In this document: positions 36,489 to 63,734 of the stretch, piece after piece
Numbering within the stretch: the first letter of the stretch is position 1
How the letters are laid out: each line of letters begins with the position of its first letter
From: Halioglobus sp.
GTDB lineage: Bacteria > Pseudomonadota > Gammaproteobacteria > Pseudomonadales > Halieaceae
Length of the DNA stretch: 64,000 nucleotides
Reading direction: 5' to 3'
Assembly (NCBI GenBank): GCA_034521205.1
Contig: JAXHMT010000002.1
Span: 37,896-101,895 of the forward strand
Notes under the pieces: generated by a model
Seen by the model: the letters and a program-made list of their open reading frames with translations, nothing else
The model's database searches: none
Told to the model about the DNA's origin: nothing
Position numbers and translations under genes: made by a program

Positions 36489-38257
36489 TCATGGGGTTCC
36501 CGCGTCGGATTGGTCGAATGCGTGCAGCGCCGCGAGGTAGGCGAAGGTCATCGCCGAACCGATGGTCGCGCCGGCGCCCGGATAGGTGTCGCCCATCGCG
36601 GCGGCGCTGGCATTGCCCGCGGCGTACAGTCCCGCAATGGGATCGCCGGCATCATTCAGTACCCGGCCGTGTTCGTCGCACAACAGCCCTCCCTTGGTGT
36701 CCAGGTCCCCCGGCTCGCAGCGCATGGCATAGAAGGGTGGTTCGTCCAGCGGCGCCAGGGAAGGGTTGGGTTTGACCCTGGGGTCGGCGTAGTAGCGGTC
36801 GTGTTCCGTGGCGCCGCGCTTGAACTGCGGATCCTCGCCGCGGCGGGCGTGTTCGTTGAAGCGCGTAACCGTCTCGACCAGTGCCTGGGCCGGCATGTCC
36901 AGTTTTTCCGCCAGTGCCGGCAGGGAATCGGCCCGTGTGAGCAGCCCGCTGTCGAAATTCTCGGGAGCCACCTGGCGGTCGGTCTCGACCTTGCCAGGCT
37001 TGATGTGGCCGACGGCGTATTTGCGGCGGTAGGCCGCATCGAACACAAGATAACAGGGGATCGCCCGCTCGCCGCGGGCATGTGCGGCGTACTGGGCCTT
37101 GACCAGGTCCTCGTAGGGCTGGGCCTCGTTGGCGAAACGCCTGCCCTCGCCGGACACCATGATGGAACCGGGATTGGATTTGCCGGCAATCAGCGCCAAC
37201 ACGCGCCCGTCGGGAATCGTATAGGTGGGCGACCACCAGGCGCACGGCATGAAGCCCAGTGCCGCGCCGACTTCCTGCCCCAGGGTCACCGCGTCACCGG
37301 TTGCCCCGGGGGCGGAGGCCGTCCAGTCGGCGCCAATGGGCGCCTGCTGATACTGGCGGCGCATGGCGGCATTGCGGGAAAAGCCACCGGTGCCCAGCAG
37401 GACGCCGCGGCGGGCGCGAATGCGTCGGGCCGAGCCCTCATGGCGCACGACCGCGCCCAGGACACGACCCTCACCGGTGATCAGCGTTTCCATCGGCGCG
37501 TTCAGCCACAGGGGAATATCCCGGTCCATCAGCGAGCGCCGCAGGCGCGCGACAAGCGCGGGGCCCAGGCAGATGCGGTTGTCCCGCTGCCGCCGCAGCC
37601 GCGCCGGCAGATCCAGCCAGTAGCGCAGCAGCAGGGCGGCGCCCGTGGTCAGCGTGCGCAGGTTCATCGCCTGCAGCCGCTGTCCCTCGGCGATGGTGAT
37701 ATTGAAGGGCAGGAGCAGGCCGTCGTAGTGCGCGATGCGAATGTGCCGCGCCTCCTCGCCGAGGGCGCGCAGGCTGAACGGCTTGTTGTCCATGGAGCGG
37801 CTGCCGGATTGTAACCCGCGACGTTCTCGTAGTAATCCATGTAATTGGGGATGGCGCTGTAATCGACGCGGCTGTGCCGCATCATGAATTGCAGCATTTC
37901 CCGCGCCCGCTCGGCGTAGGCGCGGACCCGGGCATCCGGCACCGACTCGCCGATCAGTCCCTTGAGGTAGCTGTAGCCTTCCGCCACCGTGTCGGCGATG
38001 CCGGCCTGTGCCTGGCGGTGATTGGCGGGTACCCAGGCAACGCCGCCCGATTTGGCGGTTGTGCCGCCGTACAGGGATTCCTTTTCCACCACCAGTACAG
38101 TGCCGCCCAACTGGTGCGCCACCACCGCGCCGGTCATGCCGGCGGCTCCCGCACCGGCGACCAGCCAGTCTACTTCCAGATCCCAGTCCAAATTCGTACC
38201 CGTGTGGTTGCCCGGGCCCCTCGGCCCGTTGGCGACTGCGCAGTGTGGCAGGGCCAT
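36489..38257 (-). pseudogene. kstD: 3-ketosteroid-delta1-dehydrogenase-like FAD oxidoreductase, frameshift near 37810
   Basis: AGAGAAG, GGTTAKSGGVAWVPAN, GTGGF, GRRFANEA, DLDTKGGL, GLYAAGN, YPGAGATIG. Confidence 0.82.
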
Positions 38258-55049: not shown

Positions 55050-55633
55050 CAGGTTGAACGCCCGCAGGCCGCTGTCGGGATGTTCGGCCCGCAGCGAGGG
55101 CGCCATGCGCGACAGCGCGGCCTTGGAGGAGGTGAAGCGCAGCCCCAGCCGCCGCCGTCGCCGGCGCCGGGATGGATGTGCGCGCTGTCGCGGTAACCAT
55201 GTTGAGAATCGTGCCGCCGCCGCGTGCCAGCATGCCCGGCAGCAGTGTCTGGACCAGTGTCAGCGGCGTGAAGACATTGGCGCGGTAGATGGCCGCGAGC
55301 TGGTCGTCGGCGACCTCCAGCAGTGGTTCATGTTCCCGTGCCCGGTAACGGCATTGTTGAACAGCAGGTCGAGCCGCCCAATGTTCCGTCGCGGCCCGCG
55401 CCGCGTCCGCCAGCGATCGGGTCGAGGATACCGCGCGCAGGCACAATGCCTCGCTGCCGCGCGCTCCACCGCCGCGGCGGTGGCCCTGAGGCTGCCGGCA
55501 GGGGACTGTCGGAACCCTCGGCGAGGGTGCGCGCGGTGATCGCCACGCGGTAGCCGGCCCGCGCCAGCGCCACCGCGGACTCGGCGCCGATGCCGCGGCT
55601 CGCGCCGGTGATGAAGGCCACTTTGTCAGTCAC
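55050..55633 (-). pseudogene. SDR, multiply frameshifted and 3'-truncated
   Basis: VTDKVAFITGASRGIG, LFNNA, TILNMV, KAALSRMAPSL...RAFNL, then homology is lost. Confidence 0.8.
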
Positions 55634-56078
55634 GCTTTGCGTCTCCCGCTGCCAGCAGTTGATTGAGATTGTCGAAGGTCTGCACGGCCACCCGCTCGCC
55701 GAGTATCGCGGCGTACTGCCGCCACACGGTTTCCGTGGACTGGGACAGTTCATCGATGAACGCGCGCCCGCCTTCGGTGAAGTCGATCAGCTTGGCGCGC
55801 GAGTCGGCGGGGTCCGGATGCCGTTCCACCAGACCCATGGCCTCCAGTTCGTGGACGATCTTCATCATCGACTGGGGACGGATGCGCGCGGCCTGGGCCA
55901 GATCCACCGCCCGGCTGGCGCCGTTGCGGCCGAGGAACAGGAATACCGACCGGTGGCGCGCGCCGACGCCGCGAACACCCCGCGCGGCCAGGTCGGCGTC
56001 GAGCCGCTGTTGGAAATCGCGGGTCATCAGCATCAGAATCTGGCCCACTTCGTAGCGCAGTTGTCGACGGCGCGTCAT
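55626..56078 (-). CDS. MarR family transcriptional regulator
   Basis: VDLAQAARIRPQSMMKIVHELEAMGLVERHPDPADSRAKLIDFT. Confidence 0.92.
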   Translation of the reverse strand: MTRRRQLRYEVGQILMLMTRDFQQRLDADLAARGVRGVGARHRSVFLFLGRNGASRAVDLAQAARIRPQSMMKIVHELEAMGLVERHPDPADSRAKLIDFTEGGRAFIDELSQSTETVWRQYAAILGERVAVQTFDNLNQLLAAGDAKRD

Positions 56079-56143
56079 TGCAATTGCGAAACAATCAGCT
56101 AATCTTATAGTCAGTCTAGCTTACTATAAGGAGGGGTCAAGCC

Positions 56144-57169
56144 GTGTTTCAGGTATTCGCCGCCACGCCGGAGGACATGGGCCCCGGCGAGATCGGCGCC
56201 CACGCCGCCCGGGCCGAGGCCATGGGTTTCGACGGTCTGCAGGTGCCGGACGCCATCCACGACGGCCTGTTGCTGGCGACCATGGCCCTGGCCGCCACGG
56301 AGCGCCTGATTGTGGGCACGGCGGTGCTCGTGGCCTTTCCCCGCAGTCCGATGATCACGGCGGTTGCCGCCTGGGATCTGCAGCGCATGTCCGGCGGGCG
56401 CTTCGAACTGGGTCTGGGCACGCAGGTGCAGGCCAATATCGAAAAGCGTTACAGCGCCCGCTGGGACTCGCCGGTGCCGCAAATGCGCGAATACGTGCAG
56501 TCGATACAGGCGATTTTTCACAGTTTCCAGACCGGCGAACGGCTCGACTTCCGGGGCGATCACTACGCGTTCACCAAACTGCAGCCGTTCTTCAATCCGG
56601 GCCCGATCGAGCACCCGCATATTCCGATCCTCTGCGGGGCGGTGGGGCCGGCGATGACCCGGATGGTCGGACGCGTGGCGGATGGCATGATCACGCACCC
56701 GACCAACACGCCGCCGGAGTACATCCGGGACGTGTGCCTGCCGCGCCTGTCTGCGGGGTTCGACGGGCGCGGCGGCGAGCCGCGGGATTTCAAGCTGGTG
56801 CTCGGGCCGCTGACAGCGACGGGGCCCGATGAAGCCGCGGTGGCGGCCAACTGGGAAAAGCAGCGCCACCTGCTGGGCTTTCTCTACTCCACACCCGCCT
56901 ACTGGCCCAGCCTGGAACTGTTCGGCTGGCAGGACAAGGGGCAGCAGTTGCTGGACCTGACGCGGCAGGGCCGCTGGGAGCGGCTCCCGGAGATCATCAC
57001 CGACGATATGCTCGAGCGTTTCGTGCCGCGGGGCACCTACGACGAGATCGCCGGCGTCTACCTGGCGCGCTACGGCGGGCTGAGCCGGCGCGTGACCTTT
57101 CCCATGCCCGACGATCCGGCCGACGACCCGCATGCGGCGCGGGTGGTTCACGAACTGCAGGTGGCTTGA
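56144..57169 (+). CDS. LLM-class oxidoreductase, TIGR03617-like (predicted F420-dependent)
   Basis: HDGLL, VAFPRSPM, AWDLQ.MSGGRFELGLGTQV, TKLQPFFNPGP, FLYSTPAY. Confidence 0.88.
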   Translation: MFQVFAATPEDMGPGEIGAHAARAEAMGFDGLQVPDAIHDGLLLATMALAATERLIVGTAVLVAFPRSPMITAVAAWDLQRMSGGRFELGLGTQVQANIEKRYSARWDSPVPQMREYVQSIQAIFHSFQTGERLDFRGDHYAFTKLQPFFNPGPIEHPHIPILCGAVGPAMTRMVGRVADGMITHPTNTPPEYIRDVCLPRLSAGFDGRGGEPRDFKLVLGPLTATGPDEAAVAANWEKQRHLLGFLYSTPAYWPSLELFGWQDKGQQLLDLTRQGRWERLPEIITDDMLERFVPRGTYDEIAGVYLARYGGLSRRVTFPMPDDPADDPHAARVVHELQVA

Positions 57170-57272
57170 AAAATCATGCCGCGGGGAAAAAACTCGCGCT
57201 CGCGCTCTACCCGGGGATGCCGCCATGTTATACAGGGCGTGTGCGCAAAAGCAGAGACACAGGAGGCGAACG

Positions 57273-57719
57273 ATGACAGCTCCCGACGCGGTACATCTCG
57301 GCCAGGATGAACTGCCCTTTGTCGATATCGGCGACGGCAGCCTGTTGAAAGTGCTCCAGGTCCGGCCCGCCGAGGGTCTGTGGATCGTGGAGAATATCTT
57401 TCGGGCCGGCTACGAGGTCGAAACCCACAAACACACCGGCCCCGTATTCGGCTACACGCGTTCCGGCGCGTGGAAATACAAGGAATACGATTACGTCAAT
57501 CGCGCCGGTTCGTTCCTCTATGAACCCGCCGGCTCGGTGCATACGCTGCAGTGTATCGAGGACGACACCCGGGTCTGGTTCCAGATGTACGGCACCAACC
57601 TCAACCTGGATGCCGAGGGCAATATCACCTCGGTGGCGGACGGTCCACTGGCACTGGAATTCTACCTCGCCATGTGCGCGGAGATGGGGCATCCCGAACC
57701 GCCGGTGCTGGTGGGGTAA
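57273..57719 (+). CDS. Cupin, 2,4'-dihydroxyacetophenone dioxygenase/ChrR-like
   Basis: HKHTGPV...SGAWKY.EY...AGSFLYEPAGSVHTL; AGGAGG SD. Confidence 0.88.
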   Translation: MTAPDAVHLGQDELPFVDIGDGSLLKVLQVRPAEGLWIVENIFRAGYEVETHKHTGPVFGYTRSGAWKYKEYDYVNRAGSFLYEPAGSVHTLQCIEDDTRVWFQMYGTNLNLDAEGNITSVADGPLALEFYLAMCAEMGHPEPPVLVG

Positions 57720-57734
57720 ACTGGGCTCCGTGAA

Positions 57735-58932
57735 ATGAAGATAGACGTCTACGACCCGGACAGCTACACACAGGGCATCCCCCACGAGCAGTTCGCCTGG
57801 CTGCGGGCCAACGATCCGGTTCACTGGCACGAGCACCCGGCGGGTTACGGTTACTGGGTACTGAGTCGGCACGCGGATGTGCTGCAGGTGTCGCGGGACT
57901 TCAAGACGTTTTCCGCCGAGCAGGGCTTCGTGATGGTGGATGATCTGCCGCCGGATATTCTCGACATGGCCCGCAACCAGTTGCTGGGCATGGATCCGCC
58001 CCGGCACGCGCTCCTGCGCCGGGCGGTGATCACGCGCTTTACCTCGCGCATGCTGGCGGCGCTGGAACCGAAAATACGCGCCATTGCCCGCGACATCATG
58101 GCGCGGGTCGACGAGCCGGCGCGGGTCAATTTCGTGGAGAGCCTGGCCGGTGACCTGCCGACGGCGGTGATCTGTTCCATGCTGGATATTCCCCGGGACA
58201 GGTGGGAACAGATCCGCCGCTGGTCCGACCTGCAGACCTCCAGTACCGACCCCGATCTGGGCGGGACGCCGGAGGAGGTCAATCGGGCCAGCGTCGAGAT
58301 GGGCACCTACGGCTTCGAACTCGCCACCGAGCGCAAGGACAGCGGCGCGGATGATCTGATTTCATTGCTGATCAATCAGGAAGTGGAAGGGCAAAAGCTG
58401 TCCGAAACGGAATTCGCCGCGCTGTTCGTGCAGCTGACCGTCGCCGGCAACGAAACGACCCGCGGGTTGATCAGCAGCGGCATGTACGAACTGATGCAGC
58501 GCCCCGAGCTGATGGCGGGCGCTGCGCAGCGATCCCGGACTGCTGCCGGCCGCCGTCGAGGAGATGCTGCGCTGGACGTGTCCCCTGCATTATTTTCGCC
58601 GCACCGCGGTTGACGAGGCGCGGGTCGGCGGCCGGCGTATATCCCCCGGGGACCGGGTGGTCATGATGTACAGCTCGGCGAATTTCGACGAAAGCGTGTT
58701 TGACGAGCCCATGACCTTCGATATCGCACGCGATCCCAATCCGCACCTGGCGTTTGGTCACGGTATTCATCTGTGTCTGGGGGCCAACCTGGCTCGCCTC
58801 GAGGCGCGCATTTTTTTCGAGGAATTCTTCGAACACTTCAGTGCGATCGAGGGGGACGGCGAGCCGGTGTACATCCGTTCCAACAACATCCACGGCTTCA
58901 AGGAAATGCCGGTACTGCTGACGCCGGCGTGA
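57735..58932 (+). pseudogene. Cytochrome P450, frameshift near 58520
   Basis: MDPPRH, AGNETTR, EEMLRW, FGHGIHLCLGANLARLE. Confidence 0.95.
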
Positions 58933-58941
58933 CGGGCATCG

Positions 58942-60099
58942 ATGTATTTCGACCTGCAATACTACTGGCGCGTGCTGCGCCATGTCTGGTCCCTGAAGGG
59001 CTGGGCCGGACGGCGTCGCACCCTGCGGCGGCTGTTGCTGAATGTGCCGCTGGAATACCTGTTCAACGCGAGCTGCTTTCTGCTCGATTACCTGTTGTTT
59101 CCCTCGCTCTGGCGGCAGCGGGTGGAGCGGCCGGTGTTTATCGTCGGACACGCGCGCTCCGGCACCACGCTGGCCCATCGGCTGCTGGCGGCGGACGCAC
59201 AGACTTTCAGCTACTTTCTGTACTGGGAGATGTTTTTTCCCTCGCTGCTGCAGAAAAAGGTGATTCGCGGACTGGGCGTGCTCGATAAAAAACTGCTGGG
59301 CCGGTATTTCCACAAAAAGATCGTCGCCTGGGACGACAAGACGTTCGGCCCGACGCGTCACATGCACGATATGAGTCTGTGGAACTCGGAAGAGGACCAG
59401 TTCGTGATGCGGGGCGCCTGCGTCACGCAGCAGTGGTCCCTGGAAATTCCGATGATGGATATCGTCGACATTTTCCATGTCGATGCGATGCCGCCGCGCA
59501 AGCGCCGGCGCTGGCTGCACCACTACCGCGAGTGCGTCAAGCGGCAACTGCTGCTCAACGGCGGCGATCGAATCCATCTGGCCAAGAACCCCGTGATGAG
59601 CGGTTGGGTGCAGTCGCTGATCGACACCTTCGCGGACGCGCGCATCGTGGTAATGATGCGCGACCCGGCCAACTGTATACCCAGCGTGCTGAAACTGGTG
59701 GAGCTGAACTGGCGCGGCAGGGGCTGGCGCCGCGAGGACTACCGGCGCTCACTGGAGATCCTGACCGATATCTCCTTCGAAAGCTTTCAGCATCCGCGCG
59801 ACGTGCTGGCGCGCAATCCGGCAACACCGCAGATCGTGGTCGACTACCGGGAACTGACAGCGCGGCCGCGGGAGACTGTGCGCGCCATCTATCGCGCGCT
59901 GGAGCTGGATTACAGCGAGGACTACGATCGCTTCCTCGCCGCGCAGGAGGAGCGCGAGAAGCGTCACAGTACGTCTTTCGAGTACAGTATTGACGACTAC
60001 GACCTGTCCGCGCAGCGCATTGAAGCGGAACTGGCGGATTTCTACGAACAGTACGATTGGCCGCGCGCCACCGCGCGGGCCGCGAGCGGGGAGCAATGA
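58942..60099 (+). CDS. Sulfotransferase family protein
   Basis: RPVFIVGHARSGTT PAPS-binding loop; LAKNP; MRDP..CIPS. Confidence 0.9.
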   Translation: MYFDLQYYWRVLRHVWSLKGWAGRRRTLRRLLLNVPLEYLFNASCFLLDYLLFPSLWRQRVERPVFIVGHARSGTTLAHRLLAADAQTFSYFLYWEMFFPSLLQKKVIRGLGVLDKKLLGRYFHKKIVAWDDKTFGPTRHMHDMSLWNSEEDQFVMRGACVTQQWSLEIPMMDIVDIFHVDAMPPRKRRRWLHHYRECVKRQLLLNGGDRIHLAKNPVMSGWVQSLIDTFADARIVVMMRDPANCIPSVLKLVELNWRGRGWRREDYRRSLEILTDISFESFQHPRDVLARNPATPQIVVDYRELTARPRETVRAIYRALELDYSEDYDRFLAAQEEREKRHSTSFEYSIDDYDLSAQRIEAELADFYEQYDWPRATARAASGEQ

Positions 60100-60953
60100 T
60101 GCAGGATCAACTGCAGGGCAGGGTGGCACTGGTCACCGGCGCCAGCCGCGGCATCGGGCGCGCCATTGCGCGGCGGTTCGCCGCCGAGGGCGCCGCGGTG
60201 GTGGTTTGCGCCTCGCGCCCGGGACGCCATGGGGATCTCGAGGGCACGCTGGAGCAGACAGTTGAACTGATCGAGAACGCCGGGGGCAGGGCGGCCGCCG
60301 AAGCCTGTAATCTCGCCGACGCCGAGGCGCGGTCGGATCTGGTGGCGCGGGCCGGGAAGCACTTCGGCGCCCTGGATATCATCGTCAACAATGCCGCTGT
60401 TTCGCGCATGCGTCTGCCCAGTGAAAGTCCCGCCGCGGAGCGCAGCTGGATGTTCGACGTGAACGTCAATGCGCCGGTCGATCTCGCGCAGCAGGCGCTG
60501 CCGGAAATGCGCCGGCAGGGGCGGGGCTGGATTCTGAATATTTCCAGTGCCTCCGCGCGGCAGCCCGTGGTGCCGTACCGCGACACGCCGCTGGCGGCGC
60601 ATGTCATCGCGCCCTACGGCGCGACCAAGGCGGCGCTGGATCGCTACACCGAGGGCCTGGCCCATGAAGTTGCCGGGGAGGGTGTGTGTATCAACACGCT
60701 GGCGCCGGAAGGCATCGTGCTCACCGCGGGCGCCGATTACGTGCGCGATATCGCCCGGCGCAATCCCGACATGGCCGAACCGGTCGAAATGATGGCCGAG
60801 GCGGCACTGGCGTTGTGTTCCGGCAGTCTGCTGGGGCAGGTCTGTTACAGCCGGCAGTTGTTGCACTCGCTGGGCCGCCGCGTCATGAGTCTGGATGGCG
60901 CGACGGAATTGGGCGATGCGTTTCTCGCCGCCGATCCGGAGGAAACGGCGTAG
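60096..60953 (+). CDS. Short-chain dehydrogenase/reductase
   Basis: TGASRGIG, VNNAA, NISS, YGATKAAL. Confidence 0.92.
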   Translation: MMQDQLQGRVALVTGASRGIGRAIARRFAAEGAAVVVCASRPGRHGDLEGTLEQTVELIENAGGRAAAEACNLADAEARSDLVARAGKHFGALDIIVNNAAVSRMRLPSESPAAERSWMFDVNVNAPVDLAQQALPEMRRQGRGWILNISSASARQPVVPYRDTPLAAHVIAPYGATKAALDRYTEGLAHEVAGEGVCINTLAPEGIVLTAGADYVRDIARRNPDMAEPVEMMAEAALALCSGSLLGQVCYSRQLLHSLGRRVMSLDGATELGDAFLAADPEETA

Positions 60954-61000
60954 TGCGGCCGGGCTGCGTGTCGGGGGGATTTCTATTGTTTGCTCTTGCT

Positions 61001-61517
61001 GGATTCCCGCTTGCGCGGGAATGACGGCGGGTGGGCGCGAGTAATGACGGCGCCGTGGGCGCGAGTAATGACGGCGGGTGGGCGCGAGTGTAGAGTGACG
61101 GCGGGGGGCACGGGAATGACAGCGGGGAGCACGGGAATGACAGCGGGGAGCACGGGAATGACAGCGGGGAGCACGGGAATGACAGCGGGGTGGAGGCATC
61201 GGCCGCCTTCCAATGCCGTCATCACCGGTAGGCCGGAACGCGAGCCGCCTTCCAATGCCGTCATCACCGGTAGGCCGGAACGCGAGCCGCCTTCCAATGC
61301 CGTCATCACCGGTAGGCCGGAACGCGAGCCGCCTTCCAATGCCGTCATCACCGGTAGGCCGGAACGCGAGCCGCCTTCCAATGCCGTCATCACCGGTAGG
61401 CCGGAACGCGAGCCGCCTTCCAATGCCGTCATCACCGGTAGGCCGGAACGCGAGTCGCCTTCCAATGCCGTCATTCCCTCGCCCGCCCGCCGTCATTCCC
61501 GCGCAAGCGGGAATCCA
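61001..61517. repeat. Composite tandem array between two inverted REP/dRS3-like palindromes
   Basis: GGATTCCCGCTTGCGCGGGAATGAC (61001-61025) and its inverse (about 61492-61517); 23-24 bp x3 (61020-61089), 21 bp x4 (61108-61190), 42 bp x6 plus a partial (61202-61474). Confidence 0.95.
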
Positions 61518-61572
61518 GTAAGCTGGCCAGCGGCTCAACGGCTGGAATCAATGGTTTGTATCGGAACACAGT

Positions 61573-62964
61573 ATGAGTGACGACAACATGGCGAAAGCGG
61601 AGCTGCGCGCTGCCTGGGATGACATGATCGGGGCGCTGCAGGAAGCCCGGGACGCAATCGACCGTCCCGAACTGATGCCCGCGCCGGGAACCGAGCGCAA
61701 CCTCGCCGAGGGTTATCGCTACCTGATGGGCTATGTACACGCGGCGGTGGAGCGGGCCTTTCACGCCGATCCCGAGCGCCCGCAGTTTCGCAACGCGCTG
61801 TCCATCATTACCCGCAGTACGATCGACAACGCCGACGCGATTTATTTCTACGCGCCGATCGATGGGCAACGACAATACCGCATCAGCGGTGTGGCGGGCG
61901 ACTGGCGCCACTGGCGCGGCGAGCAGGCTTCGGCGGGCGTCACCAAAGCGCCGCACTACATGATCTTCGAGGCGACCGCCGGCGAACTGCCCGGCGACAG
62001 CGGCTCGCTGGCGGAACTGGCGCCGGGTGTCAAGACTCAGACCGGGCGCCTGGATTCCAGCGCCCTGCAGGTGGAGAGCGACGGGCATTTCGAGATTCTG
62101 CTCGCCCCGGAGCGGCCGGCGGGCCACAGCGGCAACTTCGTGTGTACCGCGAAATCGGTAGCCTCGGAGTCTGGCGACAGCGACGGCTCCACGACACGGT
62201 ATGCCACCTATATCAGCGGGCGCCAGTTGTTCTGCGACTGGGAACGCGAGGAGGCCGTCCACCTGGCAATCACCCGGGTCGGGGCCGAGGGAGGTCATGG
62301 CCCGGTCTACGGGCCGGCGGCGGCCGCCGACGAGCTGCGCCGCTGTGGCGAGATCGTGCGCAACCAGATGCATTTCTGGAACGCTTTCTGGACCATTCTC
62401 ATGGGCACCTACGGCGAGCGCGAGGGCAGCATCCCGGGCGTCGCGTTTCCGCGCAATGCCTTCAATCGCGTCAACGCCGCGTCGGGCGCCACGGGCGGCG
62501 GCCAGAGCACCAATCTCTATGCGGGCGGCGTGTTCGAACTGGAGGACGACGAAGCCCTGCTGATCGAGAACCGCGTGCCGGTGGCGCCGCAGTACATGGG
62601 TTTTCAGCTCGGCAACCTCTGGGGCGAGTCCATGGAGTACGCCGACCGCACCGGCAGCCTCAACGGCTGCCAACTGGTCGCCGACGCGGACGGCATTTAC
62701 CGTATGGTCGTCGCGCATCGCGACCCGGGCGTATCGAACTGGCTGGATACCAGCGGTCACCGGGAGGGCTTTCTGACGGCGCGCTGGGCCTACAGCGAAA
62801 AACCCGACGAGGCGGAGTGGCCGGGTATCGAAGCGCGCAAGGTGCCGTTCGATGCGGTGCGTGATCATCTGCCGGCCGATACAGCGACAGTGTCGCCGCG
62901 GGAACGCCGCGCACAGATCGCCGTGCGCCAGCGCCACGTGCAGCGGCGCTTCCGGGTTTTCTGA
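61573..62964 (+). CDS. DUF1214-type conserved protein
   Basis: LAEGYRYL, DNADAIY, DGHFEILLAPE, RQLFCDW, FELEDDEALLIE, DGIYRMVVAHRDPGVSNWLDTSGH. Confidence 0.82.
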   Translation: MSDDNMAKAELRAAWDDMIGALQEARDAIDRPELMPAPGTERNLAEGYRYLMGYVHAAVERAFHADPERPQFRNALSIITRSTIDNADAIYFYAPIDGQRQYRISGVAGDWRHWRGEQASAGVTKAPHYMIFEATAGELPGDSGSLAELAPGVKTQTGRLDSSALQVESDGHFEILLAPERPAGHSGNFVCTAKSVASESGDSDGSTTRYATYISGRQLFCDWEREEAVHLAITRVGAEGGHGPVYGPAAAADELRRCGEIVRNQMHFWNAFWTILMGTYGEREGSIPGVAFPRNAFNRVNAASGATGGGQSTNLYAGGVFELEDDEALLIENRVPVAPQYMGFQLGNLWGESMEYADRTGSLNGCQLVADADGIYRMVVAHRDPGVSNWLDTSGHREGFLTARWAYSEKPDEAEWPGIEARKVPFDAVRDHLPADTATVSPRERRAQIAVRQRHVQRRFRVF

Positions 62965-63734
62965 TGGAGGGCAAAATCGCACTGGTCATGGGCGGCGGCG
63001 CCGGTACGGGGCGCGCCATTGCCCTGGCATTCGCCCGGGAAGGGGCCGCGGTGGTGGTCGCCGATATCAATGAACAGGGCGGCGACGAAACGCTGGCGCA
63101 ACTGGAAACCCTGGGCGCCAGGGGCCTTTTCGTGCGCGCCGATACGTCGAGTGCAGAGGACGTGGCGCGGGTGATCGACACGACGCGCGAGCAATTCGGC
63201 GGCCTGCATATGGCGGTCAACAACGCGGCCAGGGGTGTGCCGAACAGGCCGGTCACGCAGTTGAGCGAGGACGAGTGGGACCGCTGCATGGCAGTCACCT
63301 TGCGCGGCGTCTGGCTGTGCATGAAGCATCAGCTGCCGCTGATCGAAGCTTCCGGCGGCGGCGCCATTGTCAACGTCGCCTCCGTCTCCGGATTGCGCGG
63401 CGAAGTGTTTCTCGGTGCCTACGCGGCGGCCAAGGGCGGCGTTCTCGCGCTGACCAAGTCGGTCGCCGTGGAATATGCAAAACGCGGTGTGCGCGTCAAT
63501 ACCGTCTGCCCCGGCGGTATCAATTCCGGCGGGATGGCCTTCTACCTGAAAGAGATGCCGGATGAGCTGCGCGAGAAAACCCTGCAAGCCCACGCCATGG
63601 AGCGCCTCGCCGAGCCGGCGGAGATCGCCGACGCCGCGGTGTACCTGTGCTCCGAGCGCGCCTCGTTTATCACCGGCCACGACCTGGTGGTTGACGGCGG
63701 GGTGCTGGTGCGCTCGAACGTGATCGACCTGTAG
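62964..63734 (+). CDS. Short-chain dehydrogenase/reductase
   Basis: GGGAGTG, VNNAA, YAAAKGG, RVNTVCPG, ITGHDLVVDGG. Confidence 0.93.
   Translation: MEGKIALVMGGGAGTGRAIALAFAREGAAVVVADINEQGGDETLAQLETLGARGLFVRADTSSAEDVARVIDTTREQFGGLHMAVNNAARGVPNRPVTQLSEDEWDRCMAVTLRGVWLCMKHQLPLIEASGGGAIVNVASVSGLRGEVFLGAYAAAKGGVLALTKSVAVEYAKRGVRVNTVCPGGINSGGMAFYLKEMPDELREKTLQAHAMERLAEPAEIADAAVYLCSERASFITGHDLVVDGGVLVRSNVIDL

What the first reader, a model, noticed from the sequence alone, without database searches (positions are those of the whole stretch)
56144..63734. F420-type LLM, cupin, P450, sulfotransferase, SDR, DUF1214, SDR run resembling the mycobacterial sterol locus
Seen: seven co-oriented genes divergent from a MarR. 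Established (from memory): M. tuberculosis has a sulfotransferase-SDR-DUF1214-type trio (Rv3529c-Rv3531c) near kshA and kstD with unresolved function, and TIGR03617 LLMs are mainly actinobacterial and predicted to use F420. Inference: an uncharacterised sterol/terpenoid oxidation and sulfo-transfer pathway shared with Actinobacteria, implying F420 use or cofactor switching in this gammaproteobacterium.
Basis: partly seen in the sequence, partly recalled or inferred. Interest (0 to 1): 0.62.

Follow-up and report, generated by a model that had tools for sequence, protein, structure and literature searches.

The report
Sterol-type P450 and sulfotransferase operon
A marine bacterium carries a regulator-controlled operon that joins a sterol-type oxidising enzyme, an F420-type reductase and a sulfate-adding enzyme with its constant partner of unknown function. 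It is a distant cousin, not a copy, of an unexplained gene trio in the cholesterol locus of mycobacteria.

Summary
The seven co-oriented genes divergent from a MarR are real. Two corrections apply. The P450 frame carries a +1 frameshift at 58518-58521, probably an assembly error: 11 of 104 conserved genes sampled in this genome are split the same way. A 0.6-kb tandem-repeat array, not a gene, lies between the first SDR and the DUF1214-like gene.

The F420 question is settled. The genome has a complete fno-cofE-cofD-cofC-cofGH operon, and 50 of 61 sampled genomes of the family (Halioglobus-like by best protein hits) have cofH. No cofactor switch is needed.

The mycobacterial link is homology, not orthology. 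Against a mycobacterial-type kstD/hsaEGF/trio/kshA locus, the window sulfotransferase is 22-25% identical, and eight other paralogues in this genome are closer. Neither SDR is the Rv3530c type, and the gene order differs.

What holds is broader. The sulfotransferase and the DUF1214-like protein form a recurrent pair: six of seven DUF copies in this genome are paired, and the two are fused in two related species. F420-type LLMs often lie near the pair.

The operon is a mosaic. A cupin-P450-SDR unit of the steroid island (the P450 is CYP125/124-like) has received the sulfotransferase-SDR-DUF cassette. Function is inferred only. This scan found the same cassette before on other DNA.

The parts
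55626..56078 (-). MarR-family regulator, divergent from the operon
   Evidence: Pfam MarR_2 42.7 bits and MarR 29.8 bits. It is 72% identical to the MarR at the same position in the related locus L041.
56079..56143 (.). Divergent promoter and candidate MarR operator. It holds the conserved AGCTAA-N13-TTAGCT and the inverted repeat 56104-56114/56120-56130.
   Evidence: The core is nearly invariant in three taxa whose flanking genes are only 72-82% identical as proteins. Promoter-like hexamers lie at 56084-56111(+), 56152-56123(-) and 56140-56113(-). Function as an operator is inferred.
56144..57169 (+). F420-type luciferase-like oxidoreductase (LLM), TIGR03617 family
   Evidence: TIGR03617 341.6 bits against a cut-off of 278.15. 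The nearest solved structures are the F420-dependent Mer enzymes at 58-63 bits. It is 82% identical to the L041 orthologue.
57273..57719 (+). Small metal-binding cupin (Cupin_7), related to 2,4'-dihydroxyacetophenone dioxygenase
   Evidence: Pfam Cupin_7 43.8 bits. PDB 3EBR E=6e-17 and DAD dioxygenase 5BPX/4P9G E~1e-13. The start is set by the 148-aa orthologue in L041. The HxH...H motif is visible in the sequence.
57735..58932 (+). CYP125/CYP124-clan cytochrome P450. The reading frame is broken by one extra base at 58518-58521.
   Evidence: The N part covers 57735-58517 and the C part 58522-58932. They are 84% and 75% identical to the intact 401-aa P450 of L041. The heme motif FGHGIHLCLG is intact. 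The L041 orthologue is 48.4% identical (400 bits) to the reconstructed CYP125 ancestor in PDB 8VXG, and scores 259 bits to CYP124 and 226-256 bits to CYP125.
58942..60099 (+). PAPS-type sulfotransferase (Sulfotransfer_3, mycobacterial Stf-like superfamily) of a divergent subfamily
   Evidence: Pfam PF13469 92.9 bits. The 5'-PSB loop GHARSGTT and the 3'-PB motif RDPANCIPS are conserved. It scores only 42 bits against PDB 2ZQ5. Orthologues at 51-70% identity occur in 24 of the 60 other family genomes sampled.
60096..60953 (+). SDR oxidoreductase 1, the cassette SDR. Its start overlaps the sulfotransferase stop (ATGA).
   Evidence: adh_short 141.9 bits. The best NCBIfam match is PRK08278 at 142.6 bits, below its cut-off, and not PRK07890. 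It travels with the sulfotransferase and the DUF protein in G050, G009, L041 and L044.
60990..61540 (.). Non-coding tandem-repeat array flanked by REP-like palindromes, inserted inside the operon
   Evidence: TRF finds 21 bp x 7.9 at 61013-61189 and 42 bp x 6.5 at 61202-61474 with 99% matches. There is no coding GC3 signal. The same SDR-DUF spacer is 9 bp in L041, 40-69 bp in G009 and G050, and 136 bp in L044.
61573..62964 (+). DUF1214-related protein of the 'long' subfamily (463 aa), the constant partner of the sulfotransferase
   Evidence: Pfam DUF1214 24.4 bits. PDB 6ANS E=6e-24. The model has pLDDT 84.8 and matches 6ANS at TM 0.86. It is fused in frame behind the sulfotransferase in G038 and G062 and in the representatives P0121 and P0206. 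Six of seven copies in this genome lie within 1.5 kb of an Stf gene.
62964..63734 (+). SDR oxidoreductase 2. It belongs to the cupin-P450-SDR unit, and its start overlaps the DUF gene's stop by 1 nt.
   Evidence: adh_short_C2 213.9 bits. PRK06172 272 bits, below its cut-off. In the same-genus genome G050 its 77%-identical orthologue directly follows the P450.

Best explanation
This is a MarR-controlled accessory operon of the steroid/lipid-catabolic island of a marine gammaproteobacterium whose closest protein hits are named Halioglobus. It was assembled from two separately travelling units.

Unit 1 is cupin - CYP125-like P450 - SDR2. It sits at this site, about 20 kb from kstD-kshA, in relatives too.

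Unit 2 is a sulfation cassette: a PAPS-type sulfotransferase, SDR1 and a DUF1214-related partner protein. Its frequent companion is an F420-type LLM oxidoreductase. In this lineage Unit 2 is inserted between the P450 and SDR2, and MarR and the LLM lie upstream.

Proposed action (inferred, not shown): the P450 hydroxylates the terminal methyl of a sterol or isoprenoid-like side chain. The SDRs and the F420-dependent LLM interconvert hydroxy, oxo or enoyl groups. The sulfotransferase, working physically with the DUF1214-like protein, puts sulfate from PAPS on a hydroxyl of that greasy substrate. MarR releases the conserved operator when a pathway ligand binds.

The cell makes its own F420. The cassette is a distant paralogue of the mycobacterial Rv3531c-Rv3530c-Rv3529c operon, not its orthologue. 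The break in the P450 frame is most likely an assembly error.
For: Shown:
- Gene families and intact cofactor motifs.
- The same MarR | LLM-cupin-P450-Stf-SDR-DUF-SDR order, with an intact 401-aa P450, in a relative at 72-87% protein identity. A second, shorter contig has the order as far as the gene after the sulfotransferase.
- In same-genus G050 the site holds ECH-SDR | cupin-P450-SDR2 | SDR-thiolase, and LLM|Stf-SDR1-DUF lies 600 kb away.
- The sulfotransferase and the DUF protein are fused into one 851/867-aa frame in two species and in two 50%-identity representative clusters.
- Six of seven DUF loci in this genome lie beside an Stf gene. The same adjacency is seen in the Actinomycetota genomes.
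- The P450 is CYP125/124-like. Its orthologue is present in 19 of 22 family genomes that have the KshA orthologue.
- The complete operon fno-cofE-cofD-cofC-cofGH scores above all curated cut-offs. cofH is present in 39 of the 40 TIGR03617-positive family genomes.
- An APS kinase gene is present, so PAPS can be made.
- F420-type LLMs recur next to Stf/DUF genes: TIGR03619 at C4:1565956 in this genome and 3 kb from the mycobacterial trio, and TIGR03617 near a DUF-SDR pair in G004.
- 11 of 104 orthologues are frame-split across five contigs, and cysC has two compensating shifts.
Against: - No substrate, product or expression data exist for any member.
- In most family genomes the P450 and the sulfotransferase cassette are not adjacent. 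In G050 they are 600 kb apart, so co-transcription here need not mean one pathway.
- Only 15 of 25 genomes with the sulfotransferase orthologue have the KshA orthologue. Two species have the fused Stf-DUF gene but neither cofH nor a TIGR03617 LLM.
- The DUF1214-like fold has no functionally characterised relative.
- The 0.6-kb repeat array may uncouple the last two genes from the rest.
Confidence: 0.5

Rival explanations
1. Two independent modules that are merely co-transcribed. The cupin-P450-SDR2 unit works on sterol side chains. The LLM and sulfotransferase-SDR-DUF cassette acts on a different, unrelated hydroxylated substrate and landed here by chance.
For: In same-genus G050 and G014 the two units are unlinked. 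The cassette occurs alone as Stf-SDR-DUF in G009 and as Stf-DUF in L043, L055 and L056. Five genomes with the sulfotransferase orthologue lack the P450 and eight show the reverse. This genome has five other DUF-Stf pairs in varied contexts.
Against: The cassette sits inside the older operon, with 9 bp between the P450 stop and the Stf start. This arrangement is kept in a lineage whose sulfotransferase is only 77% identical, and on a second contig as far as it reaches. Twenty of 25 genomes with the sulfotransferase orthologue also have the P450.
Confidence: 0.3
2. A true functional equivalent (orthologue) of the mycobacterial Rv3529c-Rv3531c trio, acting on the same cholesterol-derived intermediate.
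For: The same three protein families are present. The PAPS motifs are conserved. The mycobacterial trio lies between hsaF and kshA, its first gene has a KstR site (PMC1995591), and here kstD and kshA are 21 kb away.
Against: The sulfotransferases are 22-25% identical (60 bits), while eight paralogues in this genome score 127-199 bits. The best hit of the mycobacterial SDR lies elsewhere in this genome (184 bits against 102), and neither window SDR matches PRK07890. The window DUF protein belongs to a longer subfamily (463 against 375-379 aa) and scores no better than other paralogues. The gene order is reversed. The local regulator is a MarR; a KstR-type TetR was not searched for.
Confidence: 0.1
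3. A biosynthetic envelope-lipid sulfation pathway of the Cyp128/Stf3 (sulfomenaquinone) kind. A terminal hydroxylase and a sulfotransferase would make a sulfated isoprenoid lipid for the cell's own membrane.
For: The P450 lies directly upstream of the sulfotransferase. Some homologues are named omega-hydroxy-beta-dihydromenaquinone-9 sulfotransferase by JGI. CYP124/125-type enzymes hydroxylate terminal methyls of isoprenoid chains (established knowledge; PMC12100521).
Against: The flanking genes are catabolic: enoyl-CoA hydratase, MaoC hydratase, thiolases, kstD and kshA. A relative has a sulfatase next to the operon. Distribution within the family is patchy. The names come from automatic annotation. 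No Stf3 or Cyp128 sequence was compared here.
Confidence: 0.12
4. A decaying, non-functional operon in this strain. The P450 is truly frameshifted, a repeat array has invaded the operon, and the SDR gene behind MarR has been destroyed.
For: There is a frameshift at 58518-58521. A 619-bp repeat spacer is absent from relatives. Only fragments remain of the SDR that follows MarR in relatives.
Against: About 10% of conserved genes genome-wide are frame-split, on five contigs, often two or three times per gene and with 70-90% identity on both sides. These include a thiolase and cysC. This is the signature of assembly indel errors, and it matches a completeness of 94.8% in a 7-contig assembly where relatives reach 97-100%. 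Both P450 halves are well conserved and the heme motif is intact.
Confidence: 0.12

Closest known systems
Rv3531c-Rv3530c-Rv3529c (stf1) operon of the KstR cholesterol regulon of Mycobacterium tuberculosis. It was examined here through a syntenic mycobacterial-type locus, L038, whose sulfotransferase aligns end to end with PDB 2ZQ5.
   Same: Both have a PAPS-type Stf-family sulfotransferase with conserved PSB and PB motifs, an SDR and a DUF1214-related protein in one transcription unit. Both lie near steroid ring-opening genes, have an F420-type LLM nearby, and have no known function.
   Different: Identity is 22-28%. Reciprocal best hits fail, because other paralogues in this genome are closer. 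The order is Stf-SDR-DUF rather than DUF-SDR-Stf. The SDR is of another subfamily (not PRK07890). The DUF protein is about 85 residues longer. The local regulator is a MarR; a KstR-type TetR was not looked for. Here the unit is joined to a P450, a cupin and a TIGR03617 LLM.
Cyp128-Stf3 (Rv2268c-Rv2267c) sulfomenaquinone pathway of M. tuberculosis (from memory)
   Same: A terminal-methyl hydroxylating P450 is encoded directly beside an Stf-family sulfotransferase. The logic is to hydroxylate a lipid and then sulfate it.
   Different: That pathway is biosynthetic and acts on menaquinone. As far as I recall it has no DUF1214-like partner. The P450 here is CYP125/124-like and the context is catabolic.
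CYP125 steroid C26-monooxygenases, including the reconstructed CYP125MRCA (PDB 8VXG; PMC12100521)
   Same: The orthologue of the window P450 is 48.4% identical to CYP125MRCA over 399 residues and has the heme-thiolate motif. The P450 co-occurs with KshA orthologues in the family.
   Different: The host is a proteobacterium. A 2016 survey (PMC4810484) reported no Cyp125/Cyp142 orthologues in steroid-degrading Proteobacteria. Extant CYP125s score only 226-256 bits and CYP124 scores 259. The substrate has not been tested.
TIGR03617 (MSMEG_2256-type) F420-dependent LLM oxidoreductases, and proteobacterial F420 biosynthesis (review PMC8498797)
   Same: The LLM scores above the curated cut-off. The genome has fused CofGH (FbiC), as described for Proteobacteria, plus CofC, CofD, CofE and Fno.
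   Different: No member of this subfamily has a known substrate. The window copy is the lowest-scoring of the three copies in this genome and belongs to a score band that tracks the sulfotransferase cassette.
PDB 6ANS, uncharacterised protein of Burkholderia cenocepacia, and the VPA0106/VPA0735 DUF1254/DUF1214 structures
   Same: The fold is the same (TM 0.86 to 6ANS, 27% identity), with a distant resemblance to the Vibrio proteins.
   Different: The window protein is longer. None of these structures has an assigned function, so they say nothing about mechanism.

Membership tests
Orthologue of the mycobacterial Rv3531c-Rv3530c-Rv3529c operon | The sulfotransferase is the reciprocal best hit of the Stf1 (Rv3529c) type | tested here: not met
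   The mycobacterial Stf1-type protein (L038, 731 bits to PDB 2ZQ5) hits eight other loci in this genome at 127-199 bits and the window gene at 60 bits, 22-25% identity. In the forward direction, the weak best hits in G003 and G004 are the trio copies at 36-45 bits.
Orthologue of the mycobacterial Rv3531c-Rv3530c-Rv3529c operon | Rv3530c-type SDR (NCBIfam PRK07890) | tested here: not met
   The L038 SDR scores 433 bits on PRK07890. Neither window SDR has PRK07890 among its best 25 families. The best match of the L038 SDR in this genome is at C3:1059215-1059988 (184 bits), against 102 bits for window SDR2.
Orthologue of the mycobacterial Rv3531c-Rv3530c-Rv3529c operon | An Rv3531c-type protein in the same unit | tested here: inconclusive
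   Homology is clear (27.5% identity, 129 bits). A paralogue at C3:112929-113990 scores the same (132 bits). In G003 and G004 other paralogues score slightly better than the trio copy.
Orthologue of the mycobacterial Rv3531c-Rv3530c-Rv3529c operon | Gene order DUF-SDR-Stf, within a KstR-regulated sterol locus | tested here: not met
The order here is Stf-SDR-(repeats)-DUF, and the divergent regulator is a MarR. KstR boxes were not searched for.
PAPS-dependent sulfotransferase (Sulfotransfer_3 / Stf superfamily) | Pfam score above threshold, a 5'-phosphosulfate loop and a 3'-phosphate motif | tested here: met
   PF13469 scores 92.9 bits against 27. GHARSGTT and RDPANCIPS align with the same motifs of the mycobacterial and the other paralogues. 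An APS kinase gene is present in the genome. Enzyme activity is not testable here.
TIGR03617 F420-dependent LLM oxidoreductase | HMM score above the curated cut-off | tested here: met
   341.6 bits against 278.15.
TIGR03617 F420-dependent LLM oxidoreductase | The host can make F420 | tested here: met
   Fno 207.6, CofE 269.7, CofD 286.1, CofC 140.3 and CofGH 1162.7 bits, all above their cut-offs, in one operon at G000:C5 ~137.5-143.2 kb.
TIGR03617 F420-dependent LLM oxidoreductase | The enzyme actually uses F420 | not testable with these tools
   This needs cofactor-binding or activity assays. There is only co-occurrence: 39 of 40 TIGR03617-positive family genomes have cofH.
CYP125 family (steroid C26-monooxygenase) | At least 40% identity to a family member, and a heme-thiolate motif | tested here: inconclusive
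   The intact orthologue is 48.4% identical to the reconstructed CYP125MRCA. Extant CYP125s score 226-256 bits and CYP124 scores 259. FGHGIHLCLG is present. Identity to extant members was not computed.
CYP125 family (steroid C26-monooxygenase) | An intact reading frame in this genome | tested here: not met
   There is one extra base at 58518-58521. It is probably an assembly artefact but has not been verified.
Pfam DUF1214 (PF06742) | Score at or above the gathering threshold | tested here: not met
   24.4 bits against 25, covering only residues 163-194. The mycobacterial Rv3531c-type protein has no Pfam hit at all. The fold relation to VPA0106/VPA0735 is weak, at TM 0.36-0.42.
MarR-family regulator with a divergent target operon | A winged-helix MarR domain and a conserved palindrome in the divergent promoter region | tested here: met
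   Pfam MarR_2 and MarR. The conserved AGCTAA-N13-TTAGCT and an 11-nt inverted repeat overlap promoter-like hexamers. Binding was not tested.

The most novel reading that the evidence does not exclude
Sulfation may be a so far undescribed activation step in aerobic bacterial breakdown of sterol or isoprenoid side chains. The CYP125-like P450 would make the terminal alcohol. The sulfotransferase would convert it to a sulfate ester. Its obligatory, sometimes fused, DUF1214-like partner would be the enzyme that uses sulfate as a leaving group, by elimination or substitution. The F420-dependent LLM would then reduce or oxidise the product. This would give a first physiological role for F420 in marine Proteobacteria and a function for Rv3529c-31c-type cassettes.
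Probability: 0.12. Interest if true: 0.8.

Novelty: new variant of a known kind. Interest (0 to 1): 0.48.

Why it matters
The sulfotransferase/DUF1214-like/SDR cassette sits unexplained in the cholesterol regulon of M. tuberculosis and in many other bacteria. Here a divergent version is wired directly to a sterol-type P450 and an F420-type enzyme, under a ligand-sensing MarR, in a marine bacterium.

This offers a tractable way to find the substrate of the cassette. It also offers a candidate physiological role for F420 in Proteobacteria, which the 2021 F420 review lists as an open question.

It also corrects two easy errors. The cluster is not an orthologue of the mycobacterial trio, and no cofactor switching needs to be invoked.

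Tried and rejected
1. I tried to fetch the M. tuberculosis genome directly for reciprocal searches, using an IS6110 primer 20-mer on genome contigs. The species was not among the hits. The hits were short contigs in unrelated assemblies and four Actinomycetota MAGs. Two of the MAGs supplied the mycobacterial-type trio, and one of those (L038) a kstD/hsaEGF/trio/kshA locus, which I used instead.
3. Contigs of the two closest sulfotransferase relatives (95% and 93% identity) start just upstream of that gene and do not cover the frameshift site.
4. A literature search for DUF1214, DUF1254, 6ANS and 2ZQ5 gave nothing on function.
5. A fold search with the DUF1214-like model found only uncharacterised structural-genomics proteins.
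6. I considered and rejected the 196-aa ORF at 60990-61580 as an eighth gene. It is repeat DNA.
7. I considered a membrane anchor in the N-terminus of the sulfotransferase. The maximum Kyte-Doolittle score is 1.27, which is not convincing.
8. A sulfatase lies beside the operon in relative L041. It is absent from this site here, and elsewhere there is only a 31% match, so it is not a constant partner.

Full report
**1. What is there**

The window is G000:C2:37896-101895 of a 4.4-Mb, 7-contig genome. The closest homologues of its proteins carry Halioglobus names.

Between 55626 and 63734 lie a minus-strand MarR gene (55626-56078) and seven plus-strand genes:
- A TIGR03617 LLM at 56144-57169, scoring 341.6 bits against a cut-off of 278.
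- A Cupin_7 protein. Its start is best placed at 57273, from the 148-aa orthologue.
- A P450 at 57735-58932.
- A Sulfotransfer_3 protein at 58942-60099.
- An SDR at 60096-60953, whose start overlaps the preceding stop (ATGA).
- A 463-aa protein with a sub-threshold DUF1214 hit at 61573-62964.
- A second SDR at 62964-63734.

The next genes are on the other strand. All seven show coding-type GC3 of 0.74-0.87.

**2. Corrections**

(a) The P450 is in two frames. Aligned to the intact 401-aa orthologue of a relative (L041), the N part ends at 58517 and the C part begins at 58522. Four bases stand where one codon is expected, so there is one extra base. The heme motif FGHGIHLCLG is intact.

(b) The ORF at 60990-61580 is not a gene. 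It is a tandem array of 21 bp x ~8 and 42 bp x 6.5 (99% matches) between REP-like palindromes, and it has no coding signal. In relatives the same SDR-DUF spacer is 9 to 136 bp.

(c) 'DUF1214' is a weak label: 24.4 bits against 25.

**3. Is the frameshift real?**

Indirect evidence points to assembly error.
- In the syntenic block shared with L041, a thiolase that is 90-91% identical on both sides is also split.
- kstD in the window is split.
- The APS kinase gene has two compensating shifts within 150 bp.
- I compared 400 kb of a same-genus complete genome (G050) with this genome. Eleven of 104 orthologues were split over frames, on five contigs. Some had two or three shifts per gene and 70-86% identity throughout.
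- Completeness is 94.8% for this 7-contig assembly, where relatives reach 97-100%.

I put about 85% on an artefact.

**4. F420**

The genome has one operon, at G000:C5 ~137.5-143.2 kb, encoding Fno, CofE, CofD, CofC and fused CofGH. All score above the NCBIfam cut-offs.

In a sample of 61 genomes of the family:
- cofH is over its cut-off in 50.
- TIGR03617 LLMs are over their cut-off in 40.
- 39 of those 40 also have cofH.
- 10 of the 11 cofH-negative genomes lack the LLM. Relatives are not independent, so this is descriptive only.

F420 in Proteobacteria, with fused FbiC, is already documented, but its role there is called unknown (PMC8498797).

**5. The mycobacterial trio**

M. tuberculosis itself was not among the hits of the collection scan. 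The scan did give handles to four Actinomycetota genomes.

One of them (L038) carries, in order, kstD (953 bits on the 3-oxosteroid 1-dehydrogenase model), hsaE/G/F-type genes, a 379-aa protein, a 260-aa SDR (PRK07890, 433 bits), a 384-aa sulfotransferase, and a convergent Rieske oxygenase.

That sulfotransferase aligns end to end, at 731 bits, with the 384-residue chain of PDB 2ZQ5. From memory, 2ZQ5 is Stf1/Rv3529c. The lengths and order match Rv3531c-Rv3530c-Rv3529c between hsaF and kshA, also from memory. The literature confirms that these three genes are uncharacterised and that Rv3531c has a KstR site (PMC6429209 and PMC1995591).

Against this trio:
- The window sulfotransferase is 22-25% identical (60 bits), whereas eight other loci of the same genome score 127-199 bits.
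- The best hit of the trio SDR lies elsewhere in this genome (184 bits against 102), and neither window SDR is of the PRK07890 type.
- The DUF proteins are 27.5% identical (129 bits), no better than a paralogue at C3:112929 (132 bits).
- The gene order is reversed.

This is homology without orthology.

**6. What is really conserved**

This genome has 10 Stf-like and 7 DUF-like loci. Six of the seven DUF loci have an Stf gene within 1.5 kb on the same strand, and five of them within 150 bp. The same adjacency appears around nearly every DUF paralogue in the Actinomycetota genomes.

In two species of a related genus the two proteins are one 851/867-aa reading frame. Fusions also appear as separate 50%-identity representatives (P0121 and P0206).

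The DUF family is large: 1576 representatives at E<=1e-10. Its fold matches only uncharacterised structures: 6ANS at TM 0.86, and VPA0106/VPA0735 at about 0.4.

F420-type LLMs recur beside these genes:
- A TIGR03619 LLM lies between Stf genes at C4:1565956 in this genome, and another lies 3 kb from the mycobacterial trio.
- A TIGR03617 LLM lies 6 kb from a DUF-SDR pair in G004.
- A TIGR03617 LLM is divergent from Stf-SDR-DUF in G050.

The lower score band of TIGR03617 hits (336-365 bits), to which the window LLM belongs, occurs in 23 sampled genomes, and 20 of these have the sulfotransferase orthologue. This grouping by score is crude.

**7. The operon is a mosaic**

A relative (L041) has the identical order MarR | LLM-cupin-P450-Stf-SDR-DUF-SDR, followed by a convergent sulfatase. 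A second contig (L042) has the order as far as the gene after the sulfotransferase, where it ends.

In the same-genus genome G050 the syntenic site reads ECH-SDR | cupin-P450-SDR2 | SDR-thiolase. There, LLM | Stf-SDR1-DUF lies 600 kb away.

The sulfotransferase cassette therefore lies between the P450 and SDR2 only in some lineages. The closest relative by sulfotransferase identity (95%) even lacks SDR1.

In the sample of 61 genomes:
- The sulfotransferase orthologue occurs in 25.
- The P450 orthologue occurs in 28, and 20 genomes have both.
- The KshA orthologue occurs in 22.
- 19 of the 22 KshA-positive genomes have the P450.
- 15 of the 25 sulfotransferase-positive genomes have KshA, against 7 of the 36 without it.

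The P450 lies 19-26 kb from kshA in all three genomes of the genus.

**8. The P450 and the other enzymes**

The intact orthologue is 48.4% identical to the reconstructed CYP125 ancestor, which hydroxylates cholesterol, phytosterols and vitamin D3 at the side-chain terminus (PMC12100521). The next hits are CYP124 and extant CYP125. A 2016 survey stated that steroid-degrading Proteobacteria lack Cyp125/Cyp142 orthologues (PMC4810484), so this P450 is worth testing.

The cupin has the HxH...H metal site and resembles 2,4'-dihydroxyacetophenone dioxygenase.

The flanking genes encode hydratases, SDRs and thiolases of the side-chain beta-oxidation kind.

**9. Regulation**

The 65-bp MarR-LLM spacer holds a core that is nearly invariant in three taxa (AGCTAA-N13-TTAGCT) and an 11-nt inverted repeat. 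Both overlap divergent promoter-like hexamers. This is the usual picture of a self-regulating MarR operator, but it is an inference.

**10. Mechanism and verdict**

Shown: the gene families, the motifs, the genetic capacity to make F420 and PAPS, the pairing and fusion of the sulfotransferase with the DUF protein, and the mosaic origin of the operon.

Inferred: the P450 hydroxylates a sterol or isoprenoid side chain, the SDRs and the LLM carry out redox steps, and the sulfotransferase-DUF pair sulfates the substrate.

The main rival is that the two modules share a transcript but not a pathway.

This scan has met the same cassette on other DNA. My tests of pairing, fusion and distant relation to the mycobacterial trio agree with those notes, and I made them independently here.

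The finding is a new variant of a known but unexplained cassette. Its interest is moderate.

Noticed in passing
G000 genome-wide; examples at window ~37800-37880 (kstD), G000:C2:105107 (thiolase) and G000:C3:139000-139563 (cysC): About one in ten conserved genes (11 of 104 sampled) is split over reading frames, some two or three times, on five contigs. The assembly probably carries many indel errors, so any 'pseudogene' call in this genome needs read support.
   Followed up: partly
window 55174-55633: Only fragments remain of the SDR gene that follows MarR in relatives (residues 1-41 and 68-164 of 279). The enoyl-CoA hydratase that follows it in relatives now lies about 8 kb away, and a czc efflux operon lies in between. 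This points to a real rearrangement or insertion at this site.
   Followed up: partly
L055:4178-6676 (G038) and L056:5602-8103 (G062): The sulfotransferase and the DUF1214-like protein are fused in one 851/867-aa frame in two species. These species have neither cofH nor a TIGR03617 LLM.
   Followed up: partly
G000:C4:1563499-1574154: This is a hot spot with two DUF1214-like genes and three sulfotransferase genes. It also holds a TIGR03619 F420-type LLM, an amine-oxidase-like flavoprotein and a phosphotransferase of the APH/ecdysteroid-kinase-like family.
   Followed up: partly
G000:C3:111766-121959: Another DUF-Stf pair lies next to a DUF3604 protein, a sulfatase-like gene, a probable TonB-dependent receptor and a glycoside-hydrolase-like gene. 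The last two are judged by eye from their translations and were not searched.
   Followed up: no
L041:14194-16301: In a relative, a convergent sulfatase (PF00884) and a 252-aa protein with no family hit follow the operon directly. Both are missing at this site in the window's genome.
   Followed up: partly
L011, L013-L015, L017, L019, L021-L028 (genome contigs): An exact IS6110 primer 20-mer occurs on very short contigs (mostly under 2 kb, several with coverage labels below 3x) of unrelated assemblies such as Bacillus, Streptomyces, Lentibacillus and Metamycoplasma. This looks like trace contamination with M. tuberculosis-complex DNA in public assemblies.
   Followed up: no
L062-L081 (G050:C1:1000001-1400000): The 'same genus' genome G050 has 51% G+C over 400 kb, against about 65% around the finding (48-64 kb of the window). 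This is an unusually large gap for one genus.
   Followed up: no
window 60990-61540: A 21-bp and 42-bp tandem array between REP-like palindromes lies inside the operon. No terminator-like site was found in it. Another finding of this scan covers it.
   Followed up: partly
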